Shown here one piece after another: positions 1 through 12,073 of a stretch of 12,073 bases of DNA; position 1 is the first letter of the stretch; the number at the start of each line of letters is the position of its first letter. The DNA is from a virus. The stretch is taken from the UHGV virus genome UHGV-0372056. One strand, 5' to 3'. The notes below the pieces were generated by a model that was not told the DNA's origin, ran no database searches, and worked only from the letters and a program-made list of their open reading frames with translations. The position numbers and the translations under genes were made by a program.

Positions 1-960
1 GGCACTGGCTGAGGCCTGCCCGGCACTTGTTGACGCGGCACTGGCAGATAATGCAGCCGCTGTTTTTGAACCTGCCGCAGCTGAGGCGCTCTGTCCCGCT
101 GCTGTTTCAGAAGACTTAGCGTTCGTCTCGGACGTTTTTGCCGCCTTCGCGGAATTTCCTGCCGCCGTTGCCGAGGAAGCTGCACTACTGGCACTTGATG
201 ATGCATTCGTTTCTGAAGATTTCGCTGCCTCTTTTGAGGCCGCCGCACCCCGTGCCGAGGTGGCAGCTTCTGACGCCTTCGTGGTCGCTGTGGATGCAGA
301 AGTGGCTGCCGATTTTTGTGATGCTGCGGCATTCGTTTCTGACGTTTTCGCGGCACTGGCGCTGGTAGCTGCCGCGCTTTTTGATGACTCTGCAGCAGCA
401 GCACTTTTTGCTGCTTCACGGGCCTTTGTCGATGCCGTTCCTGCGCTGGAAGACGCTGACTGAGCCGACGACGCGGCCTGTCCGGCTGACGTGCTGGCGG
501 CACGTGCTGAGGCTGCAGCATCGGTTGCATGAGTTGCCGCCTCGCTGGCTGATGCACTGGCATCGCTGGCTGATTTTTTCGCGGCTGCCGTATTCTGTGC
601 AACCGCGGAGGCGTTACGTGACACCTCTTCCACCATCTGCTCAAAGCGGCGCAGTGCCTCCGGTCGGACATCATCCTCCGTCATGGCACCGAGAAAATCA
701 TTCAGCGTACCTGGTCTGGAACCTTCATAGACGGTAATGGTCCCGGCATGTGAAGGCGGAAAACCTTCAACCAGCAGGGTGACGCTGTACTGACCATGCT
801 CAACATCCATGCTGTAACGTCCGGCTTCATCCGGATTTTCAGAGGCCACCGTGTTCACCACCACCGTGCTGCTGGTTCGTCTGGCCTTCAGCACAATGGT
901 GCAGTTCTGTACTGGTTTTCCTGTGCCATCTTTAAGCACGCCAGAAATTTTTACTGTCAT
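1..960 (-). CDS. stf: Side tail fibre protein Stf, N-terminal 320 codons; gene continues beyond the left edge of the window
   Basis: Minus-strand translation from ATG at 960 gives MTVKISGVLKDGTGKPVQNCTIVLKARR...VYEGSRPGTLNDFLGAMTEDD..., closely matching the recalled lambda/Rac Stf N-terminus (MAVKISGVLKDGTGKPVQNCTIQLKARR...), followed by the characteristic Ala/Ser/Thr-rich low-complexity repeats. Open through position 1 in frame (960 nt = 320 codons). Confidence 0.85.
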   Translation of the reverse strand, partial: MTVKISGVLKDGTGKPVQNCTIVLKARRTSSTVVVNTVASENPDEAGRYSMDVEHGQYSVTLLVEGFPPSHAGTITVYEGSRPGTLNDFLGAMTEDDVRPEALRRFEQMVEEVSRNASAVAQNTAAAKKSASDASASASEAATHATDAAASARAASTSAGQAASSAQSASSSAGTASTKAREAAKSAAAAESSKSAAATSASAAKTSETNAAASQKSAATSASTATTKASEAATSARGAAASKEAAKSSETNASSSASSAASSATAAGNSAKAAKTSETNAKSSETAAGQSASAAAGSKTAAALSASAASTSAGQASASA

Positions 961-973
961 ACTTTTCCACCAA

Positions 974-1006
974 TAAAAAAAGCCCGCAGCAGTGACGCCA
1001 CGGGCT
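974..1006 (-). terminator. Rho-independent terminator-like hairpin immediately upstream of stf
   Basis: Minus-strand RNA GCCCGUGGCG-UCACU-GCUGCGGGC (about 9 bp stem including G-U pairs) followed by UUUUUUU. Lambda has an analogous hairpin plus T-run between lom and stf. Confidence 0.6.
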
Positions 1007-1032
1007 TCAGGACAGTGTAACTTTACGTTTCC

Positions 1033-1290
1033 TCAAACGCAGTTCACCCCATAAGGTGGATGAACCTGCGTATCATAACAATATTTACAGAAGATAAATC
1101 GGCGTCTGTTGTCAGAAACGGTATCTGCATCCAGCTCTTCACCGGTATACTCTGCATCCGTCAGATAAACCGCGATCGCAGGAAAATCCTCTTCGTCAAA
1201 AACAACGGGGCGACCATCAAACAGCGTCGCCCCGTGTTCATGCTGCTCGAGTGCATCCAGCACTGCGGCACGAATGTCAGTGTGTTTCAT
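1033..1290 (-). CDS. U: Tail terminator protein U, truncated: first ~57 aa are U-like, last ~28 aa are unrelated read-through (probable pseudogene)
   Basis: MKHTDIRAAVLDALEQHEHGATLFDGRPVVFDEEDFPAIAVYLTDAEYTGEELDADT matches recalled lambda U (MKHTELRAAVLDALEKHDTGATFFDGRPAVFDEADFPAVAVYLTGAEYTGEELDSDT). Similarity stops abruptly at about plus 1119/1120, after which the ORF reads Cys-rich sequence to a stop. Lambda U is 131 aa. Confidence 0.7.
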   Translation of the reverse strand: MKHTDIRAAVLDALEQHEHGATLFDGRPVVFDEEDFPAIAVYLTDAEYTGEELDADTVSDNRRRFIFCKYCYDTQVHPPYGVNCV

Positions 1291-2657: not shown

Positions 2658-3331
2658 TTATTTCACCTGCACCACCACAAACTCATCCGGATCCGGCAGC
2701 ACCATCAGCGGTGCGGACTGCGTCATGGTGAATTCACGGGCCGGATCGCCCACAGTCAGCCAGTGTTTCGGATAACGGGAAGAGGCCACCACACCTTCGG
2801 ACAACGCCTGCGCATCCTGAATGGCACCATAGCAACGAATGCCCTCTGCTGCCGTATTCCCCAGGACCAGTGTGCCCACCGGCAGATAACGTTTTTCGGT
2901 ACCGTCGTCTGCCACATAAGACGTTTTCGCCACCACAATGGCCAGATCGCCGTAATACCCCTTGAAAGACACCACCGCTCCCAGGTCTTTCACTGCCGTT
3001 TCGAGTTGTGAATTTGAGCCGCGACGGGTAGCTGAGCCGGATCTTCACCAGGAAGGCGCTCAACCGCCTGCTGGTAATTAAATTCGTGTTTGGGCTTGAC
3101 GTAGCCCGGACGTAACACGCGGGTTTCACCACCGCGATGGCGAAGCACTTTTCCTTCAACGATCGGGGAGACATAGGCCGCCACCGGCGTTTTTCCGGTA
3201 ATTTTGTCCAGCATCACCTCTTCGGTGTGGAAATTCACCGTACGGCGGAAAAACAGCTCCAGAAACAGCGCACGGAATTTAACTTTTTGTTCGGTATAAC
3301 CGAGTAACTGGCGGGTCGTAAACAATCCCAT
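2658..3331 (-). pseudogene. E: Major capsid protein E, disrupted by an internal out-of-frame deletion (N-terminal and C-terminal fragments in different frames)
   Basis: ORF 2990..3331 (MGLFTTRQLLGYTEQKVKF...VSPIVEGKVLRHRGGE...PGYVKPKHE...RLPGEDPAQLP) matches recalled lambda E residues ~1-105 then diverges and stops. ORF 2658..2993 (...KDLGAVVSFKGYYGDLAIVV...YPKHWLTVGDPAREFTMTQSAPLMVLPDPDEFVVVQVK) matches the lambda E C-terminus. Junction lies near plus 3029/3030 with a frame change. Total 224 aa of E-like sequence versus 341 aa in lambda. Confidence 0.8.
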
Positions 3332-3388: not shown

Positions 3389-3736
3389 TTACGGCAGCGC
3401 CGCGTGACTCAGGGCACTGCCGGTAAAGGCGTTGGCCTTTTTGTGTTCATCCACACTGTCAGGCCAGCGGATTGCCTCCGTCGCAAAGGTCCCCGACTTG
3501 TAATAGGTCAGCACCGCCTCTGTGCCTTCAAGCGGCAGTACCAGTATGCCAACCGCACTACCGGCTTTCTGTCCGTCCCAGACCACCAGTTTCCCGGTGG
3601 CCCCATCCAGCATCAGGGGTGTCAGTGCCGGTGTTGCCGAGGAAATCCCGCTGCTGCCTGTGGCGGTGTGAGCCGGATCATTACCGGCAAAAATACGTAC
3701 TTCCGCACGCTGTTCAGTGATGGTTTTCGTCACCAT
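3389..3736 (-). CDS. D: Head decoration protein D
   Basis: 115 aa, MVTKTITEQRAEV...TPLMLDGATGKLVVWDG...; resembles recalled lambda gpD ([52 protein letters not shown]...), similar length. Confidence 0.85.
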   Translation of the reverse strand: MVTKTITEQRAEVRIFAGNDPAHTATGSSGISSATPALTPLMLDGATGKLVVWDGQKAGSAVGILVLPLEGTEAVLTYYKSGTFATEAIRWPDSVDEHKKANAFTGSALSHAALP

Positions 3737-3772: not shown

Positions 3773-4375
3773 TCATGGCATGGCCATGAGCATTTTCACG
3801 TCCGCATCACCGTCTTCTGACGCCTGTGACACGCCCCCCTGGACCGCAGCCGGTGAATGGTTCGCCATGAAATGTTCAAACAGGGCGGTTGTGGATGCAG
3901 AGACCGGTTCTGCCTTACCTGATCCCGCAGCCAGCACAGCCCGGGCGCTCTCCACGGTCATTCCCGGGCAGGCCGCCAGTTTTTCAGCCTGCGCTTCTGC
4001 CCCTTTTGCCTCATCCAGGGCCATGATCTGATCACGAAGTGAGGGCCCGGCATCCGCCAGTGGTGCAGCCGCCAGGATCGGGCGGGCTTTTTCCACCGTC
4101 ATCTCCGGCATCGCCGCCAGCGTTGCCGCCAGTTGTTCACGACCGTTCGCTTCTTCACACGCCATAATGCGATCGGCTTCACTCTGCGCGGATGCCACCG
4201 GCTGCTGCGGTGCCGCCGCGGCCAGAATCGCCCGGGCCTGTTCAACGCTCATGCCCTGTTGCCCTGCCAGCATCGTGGCAAGCTGTTCACGTCCTTTCGC
4301 TTCCTGGCATGTCAGGATCCCCATCACTCGCTGGTTCTCCTGCACGGCGGCTTCCGTTGCAGTTAATTGCGGCAT
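3773..4375 (-). CDS. Nu3: Scaffolding protein Nu3, nested in-frame in the 3' part of C
   Basis: Internal ATG at 4375 preceded by GGAGG (minus strand gtcagaGGAGGcactATG), in frame with C; product MPQLTATEAAVQENQRVMGILTCQEAKGRE... parallels lambda Nu3 (internal start, ...ENSRIMGILNCEEAHGRE...). Nested initiation is inferred by analogy with lambda. Confidence 0.6.
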   Translation of the reverse strand: MPQLTATEAAVQENQRVMGILTCQEAKGREQLATMLAGQQGMSVEQARAILAAAAPQQPVASAQSEADRIMACEEANGREQLAATLAAMPEMTVEKARPILAAAPLADAGPSLRDQIMALDEAKGAEAQAEKLAACPGMTVESARAVLAAGSGKAEPVSASTTALFEHFMANHSPAAVQGGVSQASEDGDADVKMLMAMP

Positions 4376-5278
4376 AGTGCCTCCTCTGACATTACTGTTC
4401 AGCGCCGTGGCCATCACACTGATGGCATCCGACGCATTGATTAATTCATCCGCCAGCCCGGCCTCAATGCCGGACTGACCTTCAAAAACGGCGGCCTCTG
4501 TTCCCGTGACCGCATCCACAGACAACCCGGTATACATCGCCACTTTTTCGGCAAACATCCGGTGCGCCGCATCAATCCGCTGCTGCATATCCTGGCGAAC
4601 CTCTGCCGGCAACGCTTCAAACTGATTGCCATCCACCTTGTGCGCCCCGGCATAAATCAGCGTGATATCCACACCGGCCTGCGCCAGATGACCGGCATAG
4701 CTGACATGGCTCATCATCACGCCAATGGAGCCGATACGGGATGTCTGGGTAACCAGCCGTCGGGAGCAGGCCGACGCCAGCAGCATGGCTGCAGAACAGG
4801 CCGTGTCATTGCACAGTGCCCAGACCGGCTTCTGCTGACGGAGGCGGTAAATCATGTCAGCGCAGTCAAACGCGCCGGCGGCCTGCCCGCCCGGACTGTC
4901 AATGTCCAGCAGTATGCCCCGCACCTGGCTATCTGCCATTGCCTGCTGAAGACAGGCGACAATGCCGTCATAGCCAGTCATTCCGGAAAATGGCCGCATC
5001 CCCCCCAGCCGGTGCACCAGCGTGCCGGTCACCGGCAGTACCGCAATACCGTTCACCACCCGGTAAACACGGGCCGGTCGTTTACCTCCGGCCATGTACT
5101 CGTCCGTTTCAGCCAGCATTCCGGGAGCATCAAGCTGTACCTGCTGTTGCGGTACCGAAAGACTTGCTGCCCCCATCTCGCGCCCCAGCGCGCAAAAGAA
5201 AACCCGCGCATAGGCGGGCTCCAGAAGCAGCGGTTCATTGAATGCTGCTGCAATAATGTGTGAAAGATTACGTCTCAC
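3773..5278 (-). CDS. C: Head maturation protease / minor capsid protein C (S49 ClpP-like peptidase) with C-terminal scaffold domain
   Basis: 501 aa; ...AFNEPLLLEPAYARVFFCAL...NGIAVLPVTGTL...SGMTGYDGI...GILLDIDSPGG...AFDCADMI...KPVWALCND...RRLVTQTSRIGSIGVMM... is collinear with recalled lambda gpC. The C-terminal part holds three copies of a ~41-aa motif where lambda has one. Confidence 0.9.
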   Translation of the reverse strand: MRRNLSHIIAAAFNEPLLLEPAYARVFFCALGREMGAASLSVPQQQVQLDAPGMLAETDEYMAGGKRPARVYRVVNGIAVLPVTGTLVHRLGGMRPFSGMTGYDGIVACLQQAMADSQVRGILLDIDSPGGQAAGAFDCADMIYRLRQQKPVWALCNDTACSAAMLLASACSRRLVTQTSRIGSIGVMMSHVSYAGHLAQAGVDITLIYAGAHKVDGNQFEALPAEVRQDMQQRIDAAHRMFAEKVAMYTGLSVDAVTGTEAAVFEGQSGIEAGLADELINASDAISVMATALNSNVRGGTMPQLTATEAAVQENQRVMGILTCQEAKGREQLATMLAGQQGMSVEQARAILAAAAPQQPVASAQSEADRIMACEEANGREQLAATLAAMPEMTVEKARPILAAAPLADAGPSLRDQIMALDEAKGAEAQAEKLAACPGMTVESARAVLAAGSGKAEPVSASTTALFEHFMANHSPAAVQGGVSQASEDGDADVKMLMAMP

Positions 5279-6860
5279 GTGGTGTTGTCTCCTCTTCCGG
5301 CCTGCGACTCTCCGCTATCTGCTGCTGATACGCCTGCGCTATCCACACCGGACGTGAGAGTCCGGCTTTTTCCCGCTCTGCAGATTCCCTGACCTGCTGG
5401 CGGAAAATGTCCTGATAATCCTCGCCCATCAGCGCCAGCTCTTTCTCATACGTGCTCAGTCCGGCCTCAATGCGCATCACTGATTCCTGAACCTCCTTGA
5501 GCCCGTCAATGGCCATTCTTCCGGCTCCAATCCACTCAGCCCGTGACCAGGCTGATCGCGCCTGATAAAAATCAAAACGTGCCCGTGGCGGACGAATAAT
5601 CCCCCGAAGAAGTGCCTCTTCCAGCCAGCAGGAAAACATCTGCGTGGCCAGCCGGGACGCAATAAATTTTCGCCGCCCCATAAAATAGCGCCACGACTCA
5701 TTGGCGGATGCGCGGGCACTTGAATAACTGACCTTCGAGTAATCACGGGACAACTGTTCGTAGGAAACGCCAAGACCGGCGGCGATATACCGCAGCAGCG
5801 CCTGTTCAAGCGCCGAAAATCCATTGTCTGAATCCTGCGCGGTCTGAAGTTTCAGATCATCACCGGGGAAAAGGTGCGGAATTTTGACACCGCCCAGCGT
5901 CACGCTATTCGTGTCATACCAGGTGGAGAACTTATCCAGAATATTAATAAGCGGATTATCCTTCTGCCCCTGCGGCGCACCGGCGATATATTCAAAGGCC
6001 TTTTCGGTATCAAGGTCACTTTCAATCGTCGCTGCATACATCGCCTTCACTATGGCCGACTGAAGCTGTGTTGCCTGCAGGGAATCGAGCATCTTCAGCC
6101 GTTCCATTACGCTGTAAAACTGATTGGCCCCACGGGTCTGCCCGTCCTCCACCGGCTCGAAAATATGCAGCATGGCCGGACGCCCGGTGGGAAGTTCACG
6201 CGGGATCCGTTCCCATCGTCCACTCCCAGAGAACGGAAAATCATCCTCACAGATATGGTACGCAACGGCACGGCCATATCGATCGACCTCCACACCGGCC
6301 CGCAGAAAACGGTTCCCGATACCGTGTCCTGGCGTGTCCACCCGTTTCGGACTCACGGCTTTAAAACGCGTACGAAACAGTTGCGTGCTCTCCGTATCCC
6401 AGACCGGCTGCACAAAGATTTCGCCGTTAAACGCATGAACGCCCACACCTTCACGGATAAATTCCGTAAACGTGCGTTTCCCTTCCACGTCGATCTCGCC
6501 AAACATCCCTTCGGCGTATTCCGACCAGGCCGCCTCCACCTCATCGACAAAACTTTTTGCCGCAGTCTCCCGCATCCCCAGCCAGCGCCAGTTCGGACGG
6601 TAGCTGATCAGAAACATATGCCCGACAATATGATCCTTATGCAGGGCCACCGCATTAGCCGCTATCCCGTTATTGCGCACCAGATCATCTGCCCGGGCAT
6701 TCCCCAGACGCAACGCAGGCAGCAGGGCTGCATCGGCACTCTGCGCCGGTGGCAACCACTCCGCCATTTGCCCGCCAAATCCTGCGCCGCCCCCGTTGTA
6801 GCTGAGACTCTCACGAAGCGGAACGCCGTTCACATCAATCAGGACAGGCGTTCGTTTCAT
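5268..6860 (-). CDS. B: Portal protein B
   Basis: 530 aa; MKRTPVLIDVNGVPLRESLSYNGGGAGFGGQ...IFEPVEDGQTRGANQFYSVMERLKMLD...SAIVKAMYAATIESDLD... matches recalled lambda gpB along its length (lambda 533 aa). Overlaps the W stop by 4 nt and the C start by 11 nt. Confidence 0.95.
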   Translation of the reverse strand: MKRTPVLIDVNGVPLRESLSYNGGGAGFGGQMAEWLPPAQSADAALLPALRLGNARADDLVRNNGIAANAVALHKDHIVGHMFLISYRPNWRWLGMRETAAKSFVDEVEAAWSEYAEGMFGEIDVEGKRTFTEFIREGVGVHAFNGEIFVQPVWDTESTQLFRTRFKAVSPKRVDTPGHGIGNRFLRAGVEVDRYGRAVAYHICEDDFPFSGSGRWERIPRELPTGRPAMLHIFEPVEDGQTRGANQFYSVMERLKMLDSLQATQLQSAIVKAMYAATIESDLDTEKAFEYIAGAPQGQKDNPLINILDKFSTWYDTNSVTLGGVKIPHLFPGDDLKLQTAQDSDNGFSALEQALLRYIAAGLGVSYEQLSRDYSKVSYSSARASANESWRYFMGRRKFIASRLATQMFSCWLEEALLRGIIRPPRARFDFYQARSAWSRAEWIGAGRMAIDGLKEVQESVMRIEAGLSTYEKELALMGEDYQDIFRQQVRESAEREKAGLSRPVWIAQAYQQQIAESRRPEEETTPRET

Positions 6861-7063
6861 AACCTCACTCCCAGCGGACGACGGCGACGTCGGGTTGTCC
6901 CCAGTACCGACTCCGCATCATTGATCGCCCGGTTAAGCTCATCCAGAGAAGCCGCCGTATATTCAATTCTGCGACCATCTTTCTGGACAGACACCACCCG
7001 TTTACCGGTTAATAAATCAAGGCGCGCCTGACGCAGCGCCTGTAGTTCAGCGACTGTAACCAT
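6857..7063 (-). CDS. W: Head-tail connector / DNA stabilisation protein W
   Basis: 68 aa; ...LLTGKRVVSVQKDGRRIEYTAASLDELNRAINDAE... versus recalled lambda W ...[35 protein letters not shown]...; same length. Confidence 0.85.
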   Translation of the reverse strand: MVTVAELQALRQARLDLLTGKRVVSVQKDGRRIEYTAASLDELNRAINDAESVLGTTRRRRRPLGVRL

Positions 7064-8975
7064 TCACTCCTCCGGACAGCTTCGCTGCCAGTTCTTTAAG
7101 GGTTGGCCGGGTCGTCTCTTCTTCCCGGGATTTTGCCAGTACAGCCAGATCAAGCTGCCAGCGTTGCACGGACACACGTAATGCCGCATAGGCATACACC
7201 AGACAGTCCAGCGCTTCGTTACGCCGCTTTTTGTTATCCCACAGCAGACGCATCTTTCCTTTTTCCCACTTCTCCACAAGCTCTTCCGCGACCAGTTGCT
7301 GCGCCTCTGTCTGCGAAAAAATCTCCGGATCATCAGGAAAACGGATGGCATACGACGTGGCTTCATCCGCAGGCGTGGGATCGGCTTTCATACGGGCATA
7401 GAGAATTTCTTTTGCGGTGTCCGTCCCCACTTCACACAGATACACGCCCCGCTGATTGCGGGTTTTCGGCATGGTGATCACCGGCTTGCCATAGACAGAT
7501 GCGCCTTTTACCGGCAGCACCCGGAAAACACCGTGTTTTTTTGACCTCTGATAGACAATTTCACCATCGATCCCCCCGGTGTCCCAGCAGACACGGGAAA
7601 TGGTCATTTCGGTTCCGTCTGCATGGCAGTATTTTTTGTTGATCGCCGCATCCACACGTAACAGCGTCTCTTCCTCATCGGGACGGCCCATAATGATGAT
7701 TTTATCCACCAGAAAAGCTTCCTCTCCCGGTGCCCATCCCCAGACATACATCTCAAAACGGTTTCGCTGCGAGTCAATGCCCGCCGTCAGATAAACCACC
7801 CGGGCTGGCACCGCCGCCGTGTAATGCACGACCTTATCCATCAGTACCTGGTGATCGAGTTTTTCGCCCACGGCCTCTTCCCAGGTCTCGCCCAGCGTGG
7901 TGTTCACAAAGGTTTTCAGGCCGTTGGGATCTTTCAGTGCATCCAGCCAGTCATAGACTATCTGTACCCAGGTGGTGAACGGACTGTACGCCGTCCAGAT
8001 ATGGAACGTGATGGAGCGCGGCGGCGGAATTTCATTATCCGCGGCGCTGAAAAACGTCAGACCGTCACGGGTCCACATCCCCGTGTTTTCACAGATCCAC
8101 CGCCCGTTGCTCTGGTCAAGCTCAGACTGATGGAACACGCAGCCATGATGTTCACAGAGGTAGAAAACGCTTTCGGGGCTGTCCTTCTCCCATTTTAGGC
8201 CAAAAGGCGTGGATTCATCGCCAAATTTCAGATACTGCTCCTCCCCACAGTGTGGGCAGGGCACATAAAAACGCATGAAATGCGCCGACTCGTTGGCCGC
8301 TTTTTCGATCTGGCAGGTGCCTTTGATTTTAGGCGTCGAGCCGCGAATGGATTTGGGCCATACAGAGCCCTCAATACGTTTATCCCCAAGCAGGGTTGGC
8401 GAACCCTCTTTTTCGACATCCGGTTCGAACGAGGAAAGTTCGTCATAGCAGACCACGTCCACGGATTTTTCACGGTAGTTTTTAGCGGCAGCCCCGCCCA
8501 GGCACCAGAAGCCCACGCCCGATGAAAAACGTTTCAGCGTGAGGGTATTATCACGATGTTTACGCCCAAACCACGGTGCAAGATCGAGTAAAACCGGCAC
8601 ATCCCTGATCGTGGGTTCCACATGAGATTTCATAAAATCTTCAGCAGCAGAATCCGTGGGCTGGAAAAGAAGGCTGTTGCGTGATTTATGCTCAATAAAA
8701 TAAGCCTCCACTCCCAGCAACATCTTTGTATAACCAACACGGGCAGATTTAATCAGATTAACAGTGCGGATCCGGTCATTCCCCATGCTGTTCATGATGG
8801 CAACCTGAAACGGCAGTGTTTCCCACCGCCCCGGGGTGTAAGATGACTCTTTCGGAAGGTAATAATGTCGATCTGCCCACTGAACTGTCGTCAGAGGGAC
8901 AGGAATTTTTAGCGCAAGGAGGCCGGTTGCTATCGCTCCTGCAGAATTAGCCGCCCTCAGTTCGTCTGAAATCAT
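7047..8975 (-). CDS. A: Terminase large subunit A
   Basis: Matches recalled lambda gpA over nearly its whole length ([33 protein letters not shown]..., [66 protein letters not shown]...). Start placed at ATG 8975 (MISDEL..., analogous to lambda MNISNS..., overlapping the Nu1 3' end); the longest ORF would start at 9017. Confidence 0.9.
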
Positions 8976-9495
8976 CAATCCACCTGCGCACATTCTCACC
9001 GGCTTCAGAAGCCACATCGGATGCTTTCGCGATTTCAGTTTTCACAGCATCAAGATGTACGGGTGATATATCAGGGTATTTACGCTGCAGTGTCTGAGGG
9101 ACACGGACAAGGATCCCTGATATATTCTGTGCCACTCGCTGAAAGATGTAGGTAAATAACTCCGTCTCGAGGACAAGGCCTTCCTCACGAGCATTTTTCA
9201 GCTCCTGTGCATCGGCCTGTGCCTTCGTCAGTCGGTAACGTTCGTAATCAATGGTGCCGGGCTGAAGGTCTGATTCGCTGGCAGCCCTCAAATCCTCGAT
9301 CTCTTTACGGAGTTTTTCGTTTTCAATATCAGCTTCCCTCTGCGCATACCACTGAATGGCAGCAGTTGTATCAAAAACTGATTCAGTCCCTTTCCCTCCA
9401 CCAGAAACTAGTGGTAACCCCTGACTCTGCCAGGCGGTGATGGTCCTGACATCAACGCCAAAAATATCGGCCAGTTTTTTCTTATTGACGTTCAT
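8947..9495 (-). CDS. Nu1: Terminase small subunit Nu1
   Basis: 182 aa; the N-terminal ~105 aa ([36 protein letters not shown]...[47 protein letters not shown]) match recalled lambda Nu1, while the C-terminal third is diverged. GGGGGAG precedes the ATG. Confidence 0.85.
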
Positions 9496-9499
9496 ACAC

Positions 9500-9676
9500 T
9501 CCCCCGGGAACCAGAAAGGATCTGAAAATGGCGTTTTCTAACAAAAACAGCCTTTGTCAGATCCTTTTATATTTTTAAAATTCTATTGATAATCAATCAG
9601 TTAAAAAGAAGAAGAACGGATCTGATTTTTCCCTAAAAATTTTCATAAATAGCGAAAACCCGCGAGGTCGCCGCCC
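9500..9676 (-). other. cos: cos site: cosN (9665..9676) plus cosB with three putative Nu1 R-elements
   Basis: Plus 9665..9676 aggtcgccgccc is the reverse complement of lambda's 12-nt cohesive end GGGCGGCGACCT. The adjacent minus-strand sequence CTCGCGGGTTTTCGCTATTTATGAAAATTTT matches the recalled lambda left end. Downstream are a CCGTTCTTCTTC element (R3-like) and an inverted pair AAAGGATCTGA (9515..9527) / TCAGATCCTTT (9557..9568), analogous to lambda R2/R1. Confidence 0.8.
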
Positions 9677-9899
9677 CGTAACGGTCTGGATCACCGGAAA
9701 GGACCCGCCAACGACTTTCGCGTGCAGGCATTAAAAATTTTGCAGTTCCATGCCTAGTTGAAACCTCGATTTCTATAACATCCAATTTTGTAAATTTAGA
9801 TATAGCTCAACTTTTCCCAATGTTTTCAAGTGTATAAAAACAATTGGCGTTACGCCATAACACTATACTTAGGATAAGTAAAGATTTTAAGGAGTTTTA

Positions 9900-10967
9900 A
9901 TGAGTCAACATCAATATTATCCACAGCTGAAATGGAAGCCTGCTGAATATGAATCTCTGATGCTTTTAGATCAAACTACGCTCTCTGGTTTTACTCCGAT
10001 CATTACCATTCCAGACATAGACTGGGATTATGAAAACGAATGCTACAAGAAGAGTTTGAGTTCTTACTTATCTGACTTCGGTATTAACCTTGCGGCATCC
10101 TGGAAAGCCAATCGTCCTGTTTTGCTGGATGTTAAATATTTAGATAAACATGGTTCGAGCCGCCATCATCCTCTAGATATGTGTATCCAAGATGCTAGAG
10201 TAAATGGTAAGGAAATTATCCCTGTTGTTTCTCCCGCATATTCAACAAACTATATACATGCTGTTCAACGCAACTTAATCAATGGGCTCGCTATATCTAT
10301 CACCCCCCAGACATGGCACCAATTCACAAGTCTGGTTAACCACTTAAATATTCATCCTAGTTTAATTGATGTAATCATTGATTTTGGAGATATTCAAAAC
10401 GCAACTGATAGTTTAAAACAACAAGCATTAAGCATGGTCAACACATTATCAGGCCAAGCTCCGTGGAGAAACTTGATTTTATCTTCAACCGCATACCCAG
10501 CATCACAGGCAGGGATACCGCAACATCAAGTTCATCATATTCCGCGCCATGAATACGATCTTTGGATGTACGTAGTACAGAATTTTAGCAATGGAAGAAC
10601 GCCAAGTTTTAGTGATTATCCCACCGCTAGCTCTACCATTACGAGCGTAGACCCACGCTTCATGTCTCAGTATGTCTCAGTGAGATATTCGAACGATACC
10701 TCATGGATCTTTGTAAAAGGTACCGCAGTTAAAGGAAATGGATGGGGCCAAACTAAAAACTTATGTACTACCCTTGTTAGTTCGCCAGAGTATCAAGTCT
10801 TTGGTTCCAAATTTAGTTGGGGGGATGATTACATTTACCAAAGATCATTAGGCGCTAACAAATCTGGCGGCTCTAAAGAATGGCGTAAAGTTGCACATAC
10901 GCACCATATTACGTTAGTCGTGAGACAGCTTTATTGGTTGGCGCAGACTCAGCCTGCCAAGCCTTAA
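9900..10967 (+). CDS. Hypothetical protein (355 aa), unknown function; cargo gene in the Rz-cos region
   Basis: Long ORF with AGGAG 8 nt upstream of the ATG. AT-rich coding sequence, visibly unlike the flanking phage genes. No N-terminal hydrophobic segment (MSQHQYYPQLKWKPAEYESL...). Aromatic-rich, with His clusters (SSRHHP, QHQVHHIPRH, AHTHHI). I do not recognise it as any lambda gene. Confidence 0.7.
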   Translation: MSQHQYYPQLKWKPAEYESLMLLDQTTLSGFTPIITIPDIDWDYENECYKKSLSSYLSDFGINLAASWKANRPVLLDVKYLDKHGSSRHHPLDMCIQDARVNGKEIIPVVSPAYSTNYIHAVQRNLINGLAISITPQTWHQFTSLVNHLNIHPSLIDVIIDFGDIQNATDSLKQQALSMVNTLSGQAPWRNLILSSTAYPASQAGIPQHQVHHIPRHEYDLWMYVVQNFSNGRTPSFSDYPTASSTITSVDPRFMSQYVSVRYSNDTSWIFVKGTAVKGNGWGQTKNLCTTLVSSPEYQVFGSKFSWGDDYIYQRSLGANKSGGSKEWRKVAHTHHITLVVRQLYWLAQTQPAKP

Positions 10968-11529
10968 CTTTCCAGCCTACGCGTTTCTTTAAGGCTGTTC
11001 TGACTTCAAGCCTGAGATTCGCTATTGGAATATTTTCCGCAATAATATTCCATAACTCAAATCGGGGCTTGCTTTTGATTCCTTTGGAATAGCCCCATCG
11101 TTCAAGTACGTCGATACATTCATCTTTCCAAAGCAATTGAGCGAGCATCAATGTGTCATGGTTTCGATTAAGCTTTTCTCCACGCATGTGCTTTATAAGA
11201 ATGGCGCCTTTTGGCCCAACAGAAACCGTTTTAACGCCCCACCAACCTGGGATTAACTTTAATGCTCCCTCAAGATGTTTCTCAGCTACGACAAGAGTAA
11301 CCTTGTCCATTACAGAAGAATAATGCTTGATTTGAAGAGGCAAACGCTCCAAAGAGTCATATTCACTTTTGAGCTCGTACCCGTGTATAACACCATTTAT
11401 TACAGCAATGTCTGCTCTACTGGCGCCAAGGGATATGGAAAATTCATCGACCACAAGGCAGTCTGGATCTAAATGCGATTCTTTCAAAAGCTTATGATGC
11501 ACCGCGAACCTAACATCTTGATCTTTCAT
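10909..11529 (-). CDS. Hypothetical protein (206 aa) with PD-(D/E)xK-like nuclease motif
   Basis: AAGGAG 7 nt upstream of the ATG at 11529. N-terminal region shows helix, then VVDEF, then RADIAVING, then GYELKS, i.e. the E...D-hydrophobic...E-x-K arrangement of restriction-endonuclease-fold / Hjc-like nucleases. AT-rich; 3' end overlaps the converging 355-aa gene by 59 nt. Confidence 0.7.
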   Translation of the reverse strand: MKDQDVRFAVHHKLLKESHLDPDCLVVDEFSISLGASRADIAVINGVIHGYELKSEYDSLERLPLQIKHYSSVMDKVTLVVAEKHLEGALKLIPGWWGVKTVSVGPKGAILIKHMRGEKLNRNHDTLMLAQLLWKDECIDVLERWGYSKGIKSKPRFELWNIIAENIPIANLRLEVRTALKKRVGWKVKAWQAESAPTNKAVSRLT

Positions 11530-11557
11530 GACTTCTCCTTACTCCCTCCGTTATTGA

Positions 11558-11563
11558 ATTATA
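11558..11563 (-). promoter_or_regulatory. Candidate -10 element (TATAAT) upstream of the 206-aa gene
   Basis: Perfect TATAAT on the minus strand about 29 nt upstream of the ATG at 11529; no convincing -35 hexamer found, so weak. Confidence 0.3.
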
Positions 11564-11880
11564 GCGCACTGCATTTTACTGCATTTGAGAGATTTGACCA
11601 CTTCAATCACAAAATGCTTATCTGCAGCAACAAGATTCATAGCCATACGACTATGGTGATTACCTTTTGTCTGGAAAACTGACCATTCCACGAAGATCAG
11701 ATAGGTCTATAGAATCTTGGTTTGTCATAGCGTTCGCCTTACTTTGAGATGAACCTTTGCTGCATAGGAGATCAGCCCGTCAAGGCTCACCAGCACTAAC
11801 TGACTACTCAAAGGCTCATTCCAAAGGGTTTGGTTCGACGTGGTTGAGTGCACTGCGGTGCGCGGTGAAATACCTGTACA

Positions 11881-11908
11881 AAAATGCCCCGCATCTGCGA
11901 GGCATTTT
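11881..11908 (-). terminator. Hairpin with U-tract downstream of Rz (terminator-like)
   Basis: Minus-strand RNA AAAAUGCCUCGC-AGAU-GCGGGGCAUUUU (about 12 bp stem including one G-U pair) followed by UGU, about 40 nt after the Rz stop. The plus-strand version also ends in UUUU, so it could act in both directions. Confidence 0.4.
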
Positions 11909-11945
11909 CCTGAAAGTCACGTATTAAATTTCAGTGAAATTAAAA

Positions 11946-12073
11946 TTATTTTAAGCACTGCGTCCTGATGTACTCCTGCAGGTAGTTGACCTGCGCGGTT
12001 ATCTTGTCGATTCCACTTCGGAGACGGTAATAATTGAGTTCAGCATCTGCTGTAAGTCTTGGGCTTTCTCCAT
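11946..12073 (-). CDS. Rz: Spanin inner-membrane subunit Rz, C-terminal 41 codons (gene starts beyond the right edge)
   Basis: Frame open from the window edge: ...PRLTADAELNYYRLRSGIDKITAQVNYLQEYIRTQCLK*, matching the recalled lambda Rz C-terminus ...PRLADTAERDYFTLRERLITMQKQLEGTQKYINEQCR*. Confidence 0.7.
   Translation of the reverse strand, partial: GESPRLTADAELNYYRLRSGIDKITAQVNYLQEYIRTQCLK
11999..12073 (-). CDS. Rz1: Spanin outer-membrane lipoprotein Rz1, C-terminal fragment, embedded in Rz in the +1 frame
   Basis: Alternate frame ends ...QQMLNSIITVSEVESTR*, resembling the recalled lambda Rz1 end ...QTPLNGIISPSERG*; its stop lies 53 nt before the Rz stop, as in lambda. Only 24 codons are visible. 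Confidence 0.35.
   Translation of the reverse strand: MEKAQDLQQMLNSIITVSEVESTR

What the first reader, a model, noticed from the sequence alone, without database searches (positions are those of the whole stretch)
9900..11529. AT-rich two-gene insert between Rz and cos: unknown 355-aa protein converging on a PD-(D/E)xK-like 206-aa protein
In lambda the segment between Rz and cos holds bor and small morons. Here it holds two genes I cannot place among lambdoid core genes: a 355-aa protein on the plus strand (opposite to all late genes) and a 206-aa protein on the minus strand with a nuclease-type motif (VVDEF ... RADIAV ... YELKS). Both are markedly AT-rich relative to the flanking structural genes, which suggests foreign origin. 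The Rz-cos junction is an established moron/accessory slot in lambdoid phages, so this pair is a plausible prophage-encoded defence or superinfection-exclusion module, or a toxin-antitoxin-like pair. From an unverified recollection, the N-terminal Y-Y-P-x-L-K-x-K pattern of the larger protein and the size of the pair resemble the poorly characterised 'beta protein / sce7725-like' with 'sce7726-like' gene pairs; this needs HMM confirmation.
Basis: partly seen in the sequence, partly recalled or inferred. Interest (0 to 1): 0.85.

Follow-up and report, generated by a model that had tools for sequence, protein, structure and literature searches.

The report
Minimal beta–cII prophage defence gene pair
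Between the lysis genes and cos of a decayed lambda-like prophage sit two convergent, overlapping genes (a TIM-barrel 'beta' protein and a nuclease-like 'cII/sce7726' protein); this pair is the shared core of two validated anti-phage systems, but here it lacks their toxin genes.

Summary
The 355-aa ORF (9900-10967, +) converges on the 206-aa ORF (10909-11529, -) with a 59-nt 3' overlap. Both lie in an AT-rich segment (GC 0.38-0.44, against 0.53-0.63 in the late genes) between cosN (9665-9676) and the Rz-like gene.

The large protein is a full-length Pfam Beta_protein (PF14350, E 8e-56). The small one is NCBIfam sce7726 (E 2e-54), the PADLOC 'cll' / P4 cII family.

The pair is the core of P4 gop-beta-cII (defends against lambda and P1) and of PD-lambda-2, but gop, HigB and the HTH-M78 peptidase are absent here.

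In 78/78 cII-seeded loci from many phyla, and in 7/7 loci seeded on other genes, beta and cII converge. They overlap in 76/78, and the spacing of their 3' cores is identical in 75/86.

Beta models confidently as an orphan TIM barrel (pLDDT 97). The cII-like protein keeps an invariant E..D..ExK..QxxxY nuclease motif.

Most likely this is a prophage-borne defence module with a nuclease effector and a TIM-barrel partner. Function and mechanism are inferred, not shown.

Verdict: new variant of a known kind, moderate interest.

The parts
9900..10967 (+). beta gene: 355-aa Beta_protein family member (PF14350), predicted orphan TIM barrel
10909..11529 (-). cII-like / sce7726 gene: 206-aa protein with an N-terminal PD-(D/E)xK-type motif and a helical C-terminal part
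   Evidence: ORF. NF033832 2e-54. PADLOC 'cll' 4e-31. phrog_984. 27% identity to P4 cII, E 1e-18.
11320..11445 (-). Codons for the conserved nuclease motif: E29 (11443-11445), D40 (11410-11412), E52-x-K54 (11368-11376), Q66...Y70 (11320-11334)
   Evidence: E, D, E, K and Q are invariant and Y is conserved in at least 90% of a 32-sequence alignment (numbering there is offset by -1). P4 cII HHpred hits to PD-(D/E)xK families.
10909..10967 (.). 59-nt tail-to-tail overlap of the two coding regions; no intrinsic terminator lies between them
   Evidence: The same convergent overlap is found in 76/78 loci from many phyla. The relative register is conserved.
9889..9894 (+). Shine-Dalgarno AAGGAG of beta
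   Evidence: Sequence read directly.
11535..11540 (-). Shine-Dalgarno AAGGAG of the cII-like gene
   Evidence: Sequence read directly.
11573..11600 (-). Sigma-70-like promoter candidate (TGGTCA-16-TAAAAT) upstream of the cII-like gene; consensus match only
   Evidence: The number of such sites in the region is not above the shuffle expectation.
9665..9676 (-). cosN cohesive-end sequence GGGCGGCGACCT; marks the left limit of the accessory slot
11946..12073 (-). 3' part of the Rz-like lysis gene; right flank of the slot
   Evidence: Annotation of the 100%-identical E. coli 20AR0300 locus.
9500..12000 (.). AT-rich tract (GC 0.38-0.45) that contains cos, the pair and about 420 nt of non-coding DNA

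Best explanation
The two genes are the bare 'beta-cII core', a mobile two-gene module that also forms the invariant core of the anti-phage systems gop-beta-cII (satellite P4) and PD-lambda-2.

Here the core sits in the Rz-cos accessory slot of a lambda-like prophage. It faces away from the late operon and each gene has its own ribosome-binding site, so I infer that it is expressed from the lysogen and protects the host and prophage against other phages.

Proposed mechanism (inferred):
- The 206-aa cII-like protein is a PD-(D/E)xK (RecB/MmcB-like) DNA nuclease with a helical C-terminal domain. It is the only plausible effector in this two-gene form.
- The 355-aa beta protein is an enzyme-like TIM barrel with conserved acidic, basic and histidine residues. 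It is the obligate partner that senses infection or licenses and restrains the nuclease.
- The convergent, overlapping, terminator-less arrangement couples the expression of the two genes through transcriptional interference or an antisense overlap.

What is shown: family membership, the conserved architecture, the beta fold, purifying selection and the conserved catalytic motif.

What is inferred: the defence function of the two-gene form, nuclease activity, the role of beta and the regulatory role of the overlap.
For: Family identity.

Same beta -> <- cII arrangement in P4, where gop precedes beta.

Defence function of relatives:
- gop-beta-cII protects against lambda and P1 (PMC9122126).
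- It is triggered to kill by phage orf184 (bioRxiv 10.1101/2023.04.06.535777).

Obligate pairing:
- 78/78 cII-seeded loci from Proteobacteria, Firmicutes, CPR, Bacteroidetes and other phyla have a convergent beta, and 76/78 overlap.
- 4/4 loci seeded on PD-lambda-2_B and 3/3 seeded on beta also carry the cII-like gene.
- The spacing of the two conserved 3' cores is identical in 75/86 loci.

Mobile and lysogenic-conversion contexts:
- lambda Rz-cos slot;
- Rac-like phage next to hok;
- Acinetobacter prophage directly downstream of the S24 repressor;
- Vibrio prophage next to the integrase;
- P4-like elements next to the primase;
- Gordonia phage between the integrase and HicAB.

Nuclease evidence: invariant E29/D40/E52/K54/Q66 (+Y70); HHpred for P4 cII; the 'exonuclease' annotation of Powerball gp32, which is an sce7726 member.

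Beta fold: pLDDT 97.3, TIM barrel, with conserved E16, D77, D161, R216, D239, R262, H335 and H336.

Selection: dN/dS 0.04-0.08.

Retention: the pair is 100% intact in a prophage that has lost its capsid and tail genes. It is present in 124 of 5426 complete E. coli genomes.
Against: No experiment has tested a gop-less, HigB/M78-less beta-cII pair. I found none in the papers held.

In the two validated relatives, the only components shown to be toxic are Gop (a 2-TM protein) and PD-lambda-2B. Both are missing here.

The published PD-lambda-2 clone extends only 396 nt beyond the beta gene. It may therefore have lacked an intact cII-like gene and still defended, which would argue against cII as a universal effector.

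The fold of the cII-like protein was not modelled confidently (single-sequence pLDDT 42). Neither a PDB profile search nor Pfam scans hit any nuclease.

Promoter matches are no more frequent than chance.
Confidence: 0.55

Rival explanations
1. Addiction or toxin-antitoxin-like module. The nuclease-like protein is a toxin and beta its antidote, or the reverse. The main role is to stabilise the prophage or element by post-segregational killing rather than to exclude phages.
For: Beta was described as suppressing Gop toxicity in P4, and gop-beta-cII and PD-lambda-2 are described as TA-like. The pair travels on many kinds of mobile element. It persists intact in a decayed prophage.
Against: The genes are convergent with separate promoters, unlike typical type II TA operons. 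Beta is a large, enzyme-like TIM barrel, not a small labile antitoxin. In PD-lambda-2, beta is not needed to neutralise toxicity but is needed for defence. TA and abortive-infection roles are not mutually exclusive.
Confidence: 0.15
2. Restriction-modification-like logic. Beta is a TIM-barrel enzyme that modifies DNA or a nucleotide pool to mark self, and the cII-like nuclease cuts unmarked (incoming) DNA. The convergent overlap times the expression of the two genes, as in convergent R-M systems.
Against: DpdA and TGT are no better matches than about 60 unrelated TIM barrels. There is no methyltransferase or known modification motif. gop-beta-cII behaves as a triggered cell-death system, not as restriction. 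The pair defends in relatives without any reported modification.
Confidence: 0.12
3. A function in the life cycle of the carrying element rather than in immunity. For example, a regulator of lysogeny (P4 cII takes its name from a clear-plaque phenotype; from memory), or a DNA-processing function near cos.
For: The historical P4 genetics is recalled from memory; Ghisotti 1990 could not be read. The pair lies next to cos here and in P4. The C-terminal helical part of the cII-like protein could bind DNA (weak).
Against: The pair sits in many unrelated positions: next to a repressor, integrase or primase, in the nin region, and in chromosomal contexts with no phage genes. P4 lacking this region is viable; it is called the 'nonessential region'. 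The catalytic residues are invariant across phyla whatever the host element.
Confidence: 0.1
4. Inert cargo: decaying foreign genes with no current function in this defective prophage.
For: The prophage in the window has lost part of its capsid gene and its tail genes.
Against: Both ORFs are intact and 100% identical to those in an intact sister prophage. dN/dS is 0.04-0.08. All family-invariant residues are retained.
Confidence: 0.03

Closest known systems
gop-beta-cII of satellite phage P4 (DefenseFinder/PADLOC 'Rst_gop_beta_cll'; Rousset et al. 2022, PMC9122126)
   Same: The same two protein families: beta is 355 aa in both, and both cII proteins carry the E..D..ExK motif. The orientation is the same convergent beta -> <- cII. 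Both loci lie next to cos of a mobile element.
   Different: There is no gop, the 133-aa 2-TM toxin encoded immediately upstream of beta in P4. Upstream of beta here lie cos and Nu1. Identity is only 22% (beta) and 27% (cII). P4 cII is 264 aa with a C-terminal extension, and in P4 the genes are separated by a terminator instead of overlapping. The host element is a lambdoid prophage, not a P4-like satellite.
PD-lambda-2 (Vassallo et al. 2022, PMC9519451)
   Same: The beta protein scores best against the PADLOC PD-Lambda-2_C models (4e-32). PD-lambda-2-type loci also carry a convergent, overlapping cII-like gene: 19-20 of 72 cII-seeded loci are of this type, and all 4 loci seeded on component B have it.
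   Different: The HigB-like component A and the HTH-Peptidase_M78 component B, the toxic one, are absent from the window. The published system is described as three genes and does not mention the cII-like gene.
MmcB-like / RecB-like PD-(D/E)xK nucleases (Pfam clan PDDEXK)
   Same: The motif order E - D - ExK - QxxxY, with spacing typical of minimal PD-(D/E)xK domains. HHpred gives 99.8% for P4 cII against MmcB-like.
   Different: There was no direct HMM hit to any PDDEXK Pfam family or PDB chain in my searches. No activity has been shown. An extra C-terminal helical domain is specific to this family.
lambda Rz-cos morons (bor, lambdap78, lambdap79)
   Same: The same genomic slot, and the same logic of accessory genes with their own signals and atypical composition.
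   Different: Unrelated proteins. None of bor, lambdap78 or lambdap79 is present.

Membership tests
Pfam PF14350 Beta_protein (355-aa protein) | Full-length HMM match above the gathering score | tested here: met
   190.4 bits against a cut-off of 27, residues 6-342 on profile positions 1-342 of 342. All 56 sampled relatives also match.
NCBIfam NF033832 sce7726 family / Pfam PF26915 Phage_P4_cII (206-aa protein) | HMM match above the curated cut-off | tested here: met
   184.1 bits against a cut-off of 70, residues 1-183 on profile positions 1-182 of 184. Homologues carry precomputed PF26915.
   No such hit at E<=1 for the window protein, nor for nine other beta partners, including myxobacterial ones. 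I cannot tell whether the model is in this release.
gop-beta-cII system | gop (small 2-TM toxin) immediately upstream of beta | tested here: not met
   There is no ORF of this kind. The 400 nt upstream of beta hold cos and the Nu1 start. P4 gop hits the PADLOC 'gop' model, and nothing in the window does.
gop-beta-cII system | beta and cII homologues in convergent orientation | tested here: met
   PADLOC 'beta' 3.5e-10 and 'cll' 4.3e-31. Pairwise E 3e-7 and 1e-18 against the P4 proteins. Arrangement as in P4.
gop-beta-cII system | Anti-phage activity / triggered cell death | not testable with these tools
   Known only for the P4/ECOR59 three-gene loci.
PD-lambda-2 | HigB-like component A and HTH-Peptidase_M78 component B upstream of the beta-family component C | tested here: not met
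   Only component C is matched in the window. A and B are readily detected in other loci but are absent here.
PD-(D/E)xK nuclease superfamily (206-aa protein) | Catalytic D...(D/E)xK motif, conserved across the family | tested here: met
   E29, D40, E52, K54 and Q66 are invariant and Y70 is at least 90% conserved in 32 sequences at 39-83% identity. The motif is retained in P4 cII and in Powerball gp32.
PD-(D/E)xK nuclease superfamily (206-aa protein) | alpha-beta-beta-beta-alpha-beta restriction-endonuclease-like fold | tested here: inconclusive
PDB profile search, Pfam scans and hhalign against lambda Exo were negative. Support is indirect: published HHpred for P4 cII.
TIM (beta/alpha)8 barrel fold (355-aa protein) | Confident model with alternating beta/alpha elements that matches solved TIM barrels | tested here: met
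Type II toxin-antitoxin operon | Co-directional bicistronic operon with a small antitoxin | tested here: not met
   The genes are convergent with separate starts, and neither product is small (355 and 206 aa).
Restriction-modification system | A recognisable DNA methyltransferase or other modification enzyme next to the nuclease | tested here: not met
   No methyltransferase domain in either protein. Beta matches DpdA and TGT only as one TIM barrel among many.

The most novel reading that the evidence does not exclude
Beta-cII is an ancient, self-sufficient two-enzyme immune module: an orphan TIM-barrel enzyme plus a PD-(D/E)xK nuclease. Its register-locked, terminator-less tail-to-tail overlap is itself a regulatory device. 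Gop and HigB/HTH-M78 are lineage-specific add-ons, which would make gop-beta-cII and PD-lambda-2 two decorations of one undescribed core system. In this reading beta makes, destroys or senses a small molecule or nucleic-acid mark that gates the nuclease.
Probability: 0.3. Interest if true: 0.75.

Novelty: new variant of a known kind. Interest (0 to 1): 0.55.

Why it matters
Two experimentally validated anti-phage systems, gop-beta-cII and PD-lambda-2, have no known mechanism and are catalogued as unrelated three-gene systems.

The evidence here suggests they share one invariant core: beta plus a convergent cII-like nuclease gene. That core also circulates on its own, for example in about 2% of complete E. 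coli genomes in the classic lambda moron slot.

If the bare pair defends, three things follow:
- It would be the minimal system in which to work out what the beta TIM barrel does.
- Detection rules that demand gop, or HigB plus the M78 peptidase, would be missing most occurrences.
- The near-universal overlapping convergent arrangement would become a tractable example of gene-arrangement-encoded regulation in bacterial immunity.

Tried and rejected
1. A single-sequence AF2 model of the 206-aa protein was poor (pLDDT 42). This used one of the two structure jobs, and I spent the other on beta. The nuclease fold therefore rests on motifs and on published HHpred results.

2. Profile searches of both families against PDB sequences found only chance hits: TAF1 bromodomain at E 0.11 and ELKS at E 0.17.

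3. Pfam scans of 32 cII-like and 56 beta homologues at lenient E-values found no second family.

4. hhalign of the cII-like profile against lambda Exo gave probability 0.1. A single-sequence template is uninformative.

5. I looked for an 'empty site' to define the insert boundaries, using a chimeric query made of the two flanks. No E. coli genome has them within about 1 kb of each other. Every genome examined with the right flank also has the pair. The boundaries therefore remain undefined, except for a mosaic junction near 9627.

6. The afdb50 fold library was unavailable. BFVD returned only a family member, Gordonia phage Powerball.

7. Rfam found nothing in the window.

8. Several literature searches were swamped by TGF-beta and amyloid-beta papers, and one search returned only general phage-defence papers with no mention of MmcB. 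Ghisotti 1990 is not held.

9. I tried to retrieve the E. coli PD-lambda-2 locus through homologues of component B. No E. coli entry was among the 120 listed.

10. I considered and rejected a fused beta+cII structure job.
Full report
**1. The observation**

The window carries lambda-like late genes on the minus strand: Nu1 8947-9495, A 7047-9017, W, B 5268-6860, C 3773-5278, D 3389-3736, a remnant of E, FI, FII, Z and a truncated U. The lambda cohesive-end sequence GGGCGGCGACCT is at 9665-9676 on the minus strand. An Rz-like lysis gene starts at about 11946.

- 9900-10967 on the plus strand, 355 aa;
- 10909-11529 on the minus strand, 206 aa.

They converge, and their 3' ends overlap by 59 nt. 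Both have AAGGAG Shine-Dalgarno sites. GC drops to 0.38-0.45 across about 9500-12000, against 0.53-0.63 in the structural genes. In lambda this slot holds bor, lambdap78 and lambdap79.

**2. Identity of the two proteins**

The 355-aa protein is a full-length Pfam Beta_protein (PF14350, E 8e-56). It also matches PADLOC PD-Lambda-2_C (4e-32) and 'beta' (3.5e-10), and phrog_9159.

The 206-aa protein is an NCBIfam sce7726 family member (E 2e-54). It also matches PADLOC 'cll' (4e-31) and phrog_984. Its homologues carry the newer Pfam PF26915 Phage_P4_cII.

RefSeq already annotates the identical E. coli genes as 'beta family protein' and 'sce7726 family protein'. The segment is present at 80% coverage or more in 124 of 5426 complete E. 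coli genomes.

Against the P4 prototypes the identities are low but significant: beta 22% (E 3e-7) and cII 27% (E 1e-18). No 'sce7725' model hit any beta partner.

**3. What is known about the relatives**

In P4 the order is gop (+), beta (+), cII (-), so beta and cII converge there too.
- Rousset et al. showed that gop-beta-cII protects against lambda and P1, and they cite Gop as toxic without beta (PMC9122126).
- Gop has two transmembrane segments.
- A preprint showed that the phage gene orf184 triggers cell death by gop-beta-cII.
- Vassallo et al. described PD-lambda-2 as HigB-like A, HTH-peptidase B (toxic alone, neutralised by A) and C, 'related to a P4 antitoxin'. [quoted passage not shown]

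No paper I could find gives a mechanism for beta or cII, or tests a two-gene form.

**4. The pair is an obligate, architecture-locked unit**

I fetched 80 loci, one genome per species, seeded on the cII-like protein. They span Proteobacteria, Firmicutes, Myxococcota, Bacteroidetes, Patescibacteria, Nitrospirae, Atribacterota and others.
- In all 78 loci with enough flanking DNA, a Beta_protein gene lies immediately downstream in convergent orientation.
- In 76 of those 78 the coding regions overlap, with a median of 50 nt.

Sampling that did not depend on cII gave the same answer.
- 4/4 loci seeded on PD-lambda-2_B homologues carry the cII-like gene.
- 3/3 loci seeded on beta representatives carry it too, in one case as an ORF the gene caller had missed.

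The distance between the conserved 3' cores of the two genes is identical, to the nucleotide, in 75 of 86 loci. The overlap length is 2 mod 3 in 83 of 86. The window's clade has an extra 39 nt.

Among the immediate neighbours of 72 distinct pairs, the only recurrent partner is the PD-lambda-2 A/B module: Peptidase_M78 in 20 loci, confirmed by PADLOC at E 2e-150 for B and 1e-40 for A. A DUF6932 gene recurs in six alphaproteobacterial loci.

The other neighbours are heterogeneous and often belong to mobile elements: P4-like primases, S24 repressors, integrases, Rz genes and resolvases.

So gop-beta-cII and PD-lambda-2 look like two decorations of one beta-cII core, and the window carries the undecorated core. 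The published PD-lambda-2 clone reaches only 396 nt past its beta gene. Whether it contained a functional cII-like gene is unresolved, and this matters for the mechanism.

**5. Folds**

With a 149-sequence alignment, beta models at pLDDT 97.3 and pTM 0.94, with alternating beta/alpha elements, a beta-hairpin and a C-terminal helical cap.

Beta is therefore an orphan TIM barrel. Its conserved residues (E16, D77, D161, R216, D239-Y240, R262-Y263, Q284, D309, W328, H335-H336) look like those of an enzyme, but no superfamily can be named.

For the cII-like protein my single-sequence model failed. PDB and Pfam profile searches found nothing. The nuclease assignment rests on three things:
- E29, D40, E52-x-K54 and Q66 are invariant, and Y70 nearly so. 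This is a RecB/MmcB-type motif.
- Published HHpred results for P4 cII give MmcB-like 99.8%, plus AHJR-like, NucS, DpnII-MboI, HSDR_N_2, several PDDEXK families, RecU and YhcG_C.
- Powerball gp32, which converges on and overlaps that phage's beta gene, is an sce7726 member and is curated as 'exonuclease'.

**6. Selection and state of the host element**

dN/dS against four enterobacterial orthologues is 0.05-0.08 for beta and 0.04-0.07 for the cII-like gene.

The window is 99.8-99.98% identical to a prophage of E. coli 20AR0300 from position 1120 to the end. The exception is a 355-nt frameshifting deletion in the major capsid gene. Left of 1120 the truncated U gene is joined to tail-fibre/Lom DNA, so the tail genes are missing. 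Neither junction occurs in any complete E. coli genome searched.

The accessory pair is thus intact in a prophage that can no longer make virions. This fits a host-beneficial function but does not prove one.

**7. Most likely mechanism**

I commit to a prophage-borne anti-phage module.
- The PD-(D/E)xK protein is the DNA-cutting effector. It is the only candidate in this two-gene form.
- The TIM-barrel beta protein is its obligate partner, acting as sensor, licensing factor or restraint.
- The convergent overlap has no terminator. It couples the expression of the two genes.

My confidence by level:
- Identity and architecture: about 0.95.
- Defence function of the bare pair: about 0.6.
- The specific division of labour: about 0.35.

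Rivals are an addiction/TA-like role, an R-M-like logic with beta as a modifying enzyme, a role in the element's own life cycle, and inert cargo. Each is listed with evidence and refutation tests.

The main counter-evidence is that the components shown to be toxic in the validated relatives are absent here. In addition, PD-lambda-2 may work without cII.

**8. Comparison and novelty**

The pair works like, and is homologous to, the core of gop-beta-cII and PD-lambda-2. It fails the membership test for either complete system, because gop and components A and B are absent. I file it as a new variant of a known kind.

As far as the papers held show, three things are new:
- Beta and cII form an invariant convergent pair across bacterial phyla, with a locked register.
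- PD-lambda-2-type loci contain a fourth, cII-like gene.
- Beta is an orphan TIM barrel.

**9. Limits**

- There is no experimental evidence for this pair.
- The nuclease fold was not modelled.
- No empty site was found to delimit the insert.
- The promoter calls are at chance level.

Noticed in passing
window ~3030 (ORFs 2658-2993 and 2990-3331): The major capsid gene carries a 355-nt frameshifting deletion relative to the otherwise 99.98%-identical prophage of E. coli 20AR0300. The gene is split into 113-aa and 111-aa ORFs, so this prophage cannot make capsids.
   Followed up: partly
window 1-1125, junction ~1120: The gpU-like ORF (1033-1290) is truncated and joined to DNA that elsewhere encodes a tail-fibre N-terminal domain and a Lom-family protein. 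The tail genes V to J are missing. No complete E. coli genome searched has this junction or the capsid deletion.
   Followed up: partly
L012-L103 and window 10909-10967: Register lock. The spacing between the conserved 3' cores of the cII-like and beta genes is identical (11 nt by my measure) in 75/86 loci from many phyla. Overlap lengths are 2 mod 3 in 83/86. The window's enterobacterial clade has +39 nt, and P4 is the outlier with no overlap. The cause is unexplained.
   Followed up: partly
L046 5995-9116; L097-L100: PD-lambda-2-type loci (HigB-like, HTH-Peptidase_M78, beta) always carried a fourth, convergent, overlapping cII/sce7726-like gene that the published three-gene description does not mention. 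The published clone extends only 396 nt beyond its beta gene.
   Followed up: partly
window ~9627: Mosaic junction. Other E. coli prophages share 9627-12073 (cosN, the pair, Rz) at 99.9% identity but have a different cosB/Nu1 to the left.
   Followed up: no
window 9515-9537 / 9545-9567: A 23-nt inverted repeat (83% complementary, 7-nt spacer) between the Nu1 start and cosN, in the cosB region.
   Followed up: no
L059, L075, L076, L081, L082, L087 (upstream of beta): A DUF6932 protein, with a weak match to PADLOC PDC-M63A, recurs upstream of beta on the same strand in six mostly alphaproteobacterial loci. It may be a third kind of add-on to the core.
   Followed up: no
L003-L005, 7871-8620: In Acinetobacter prophages the beta gene lies directly downstream of the CI-like HTH/Peptidase_S24 repressor gene on the same strand. 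This position resembles rexAB downstream of lambda cI and suggests expression in the lysogen.
   Followed up: no
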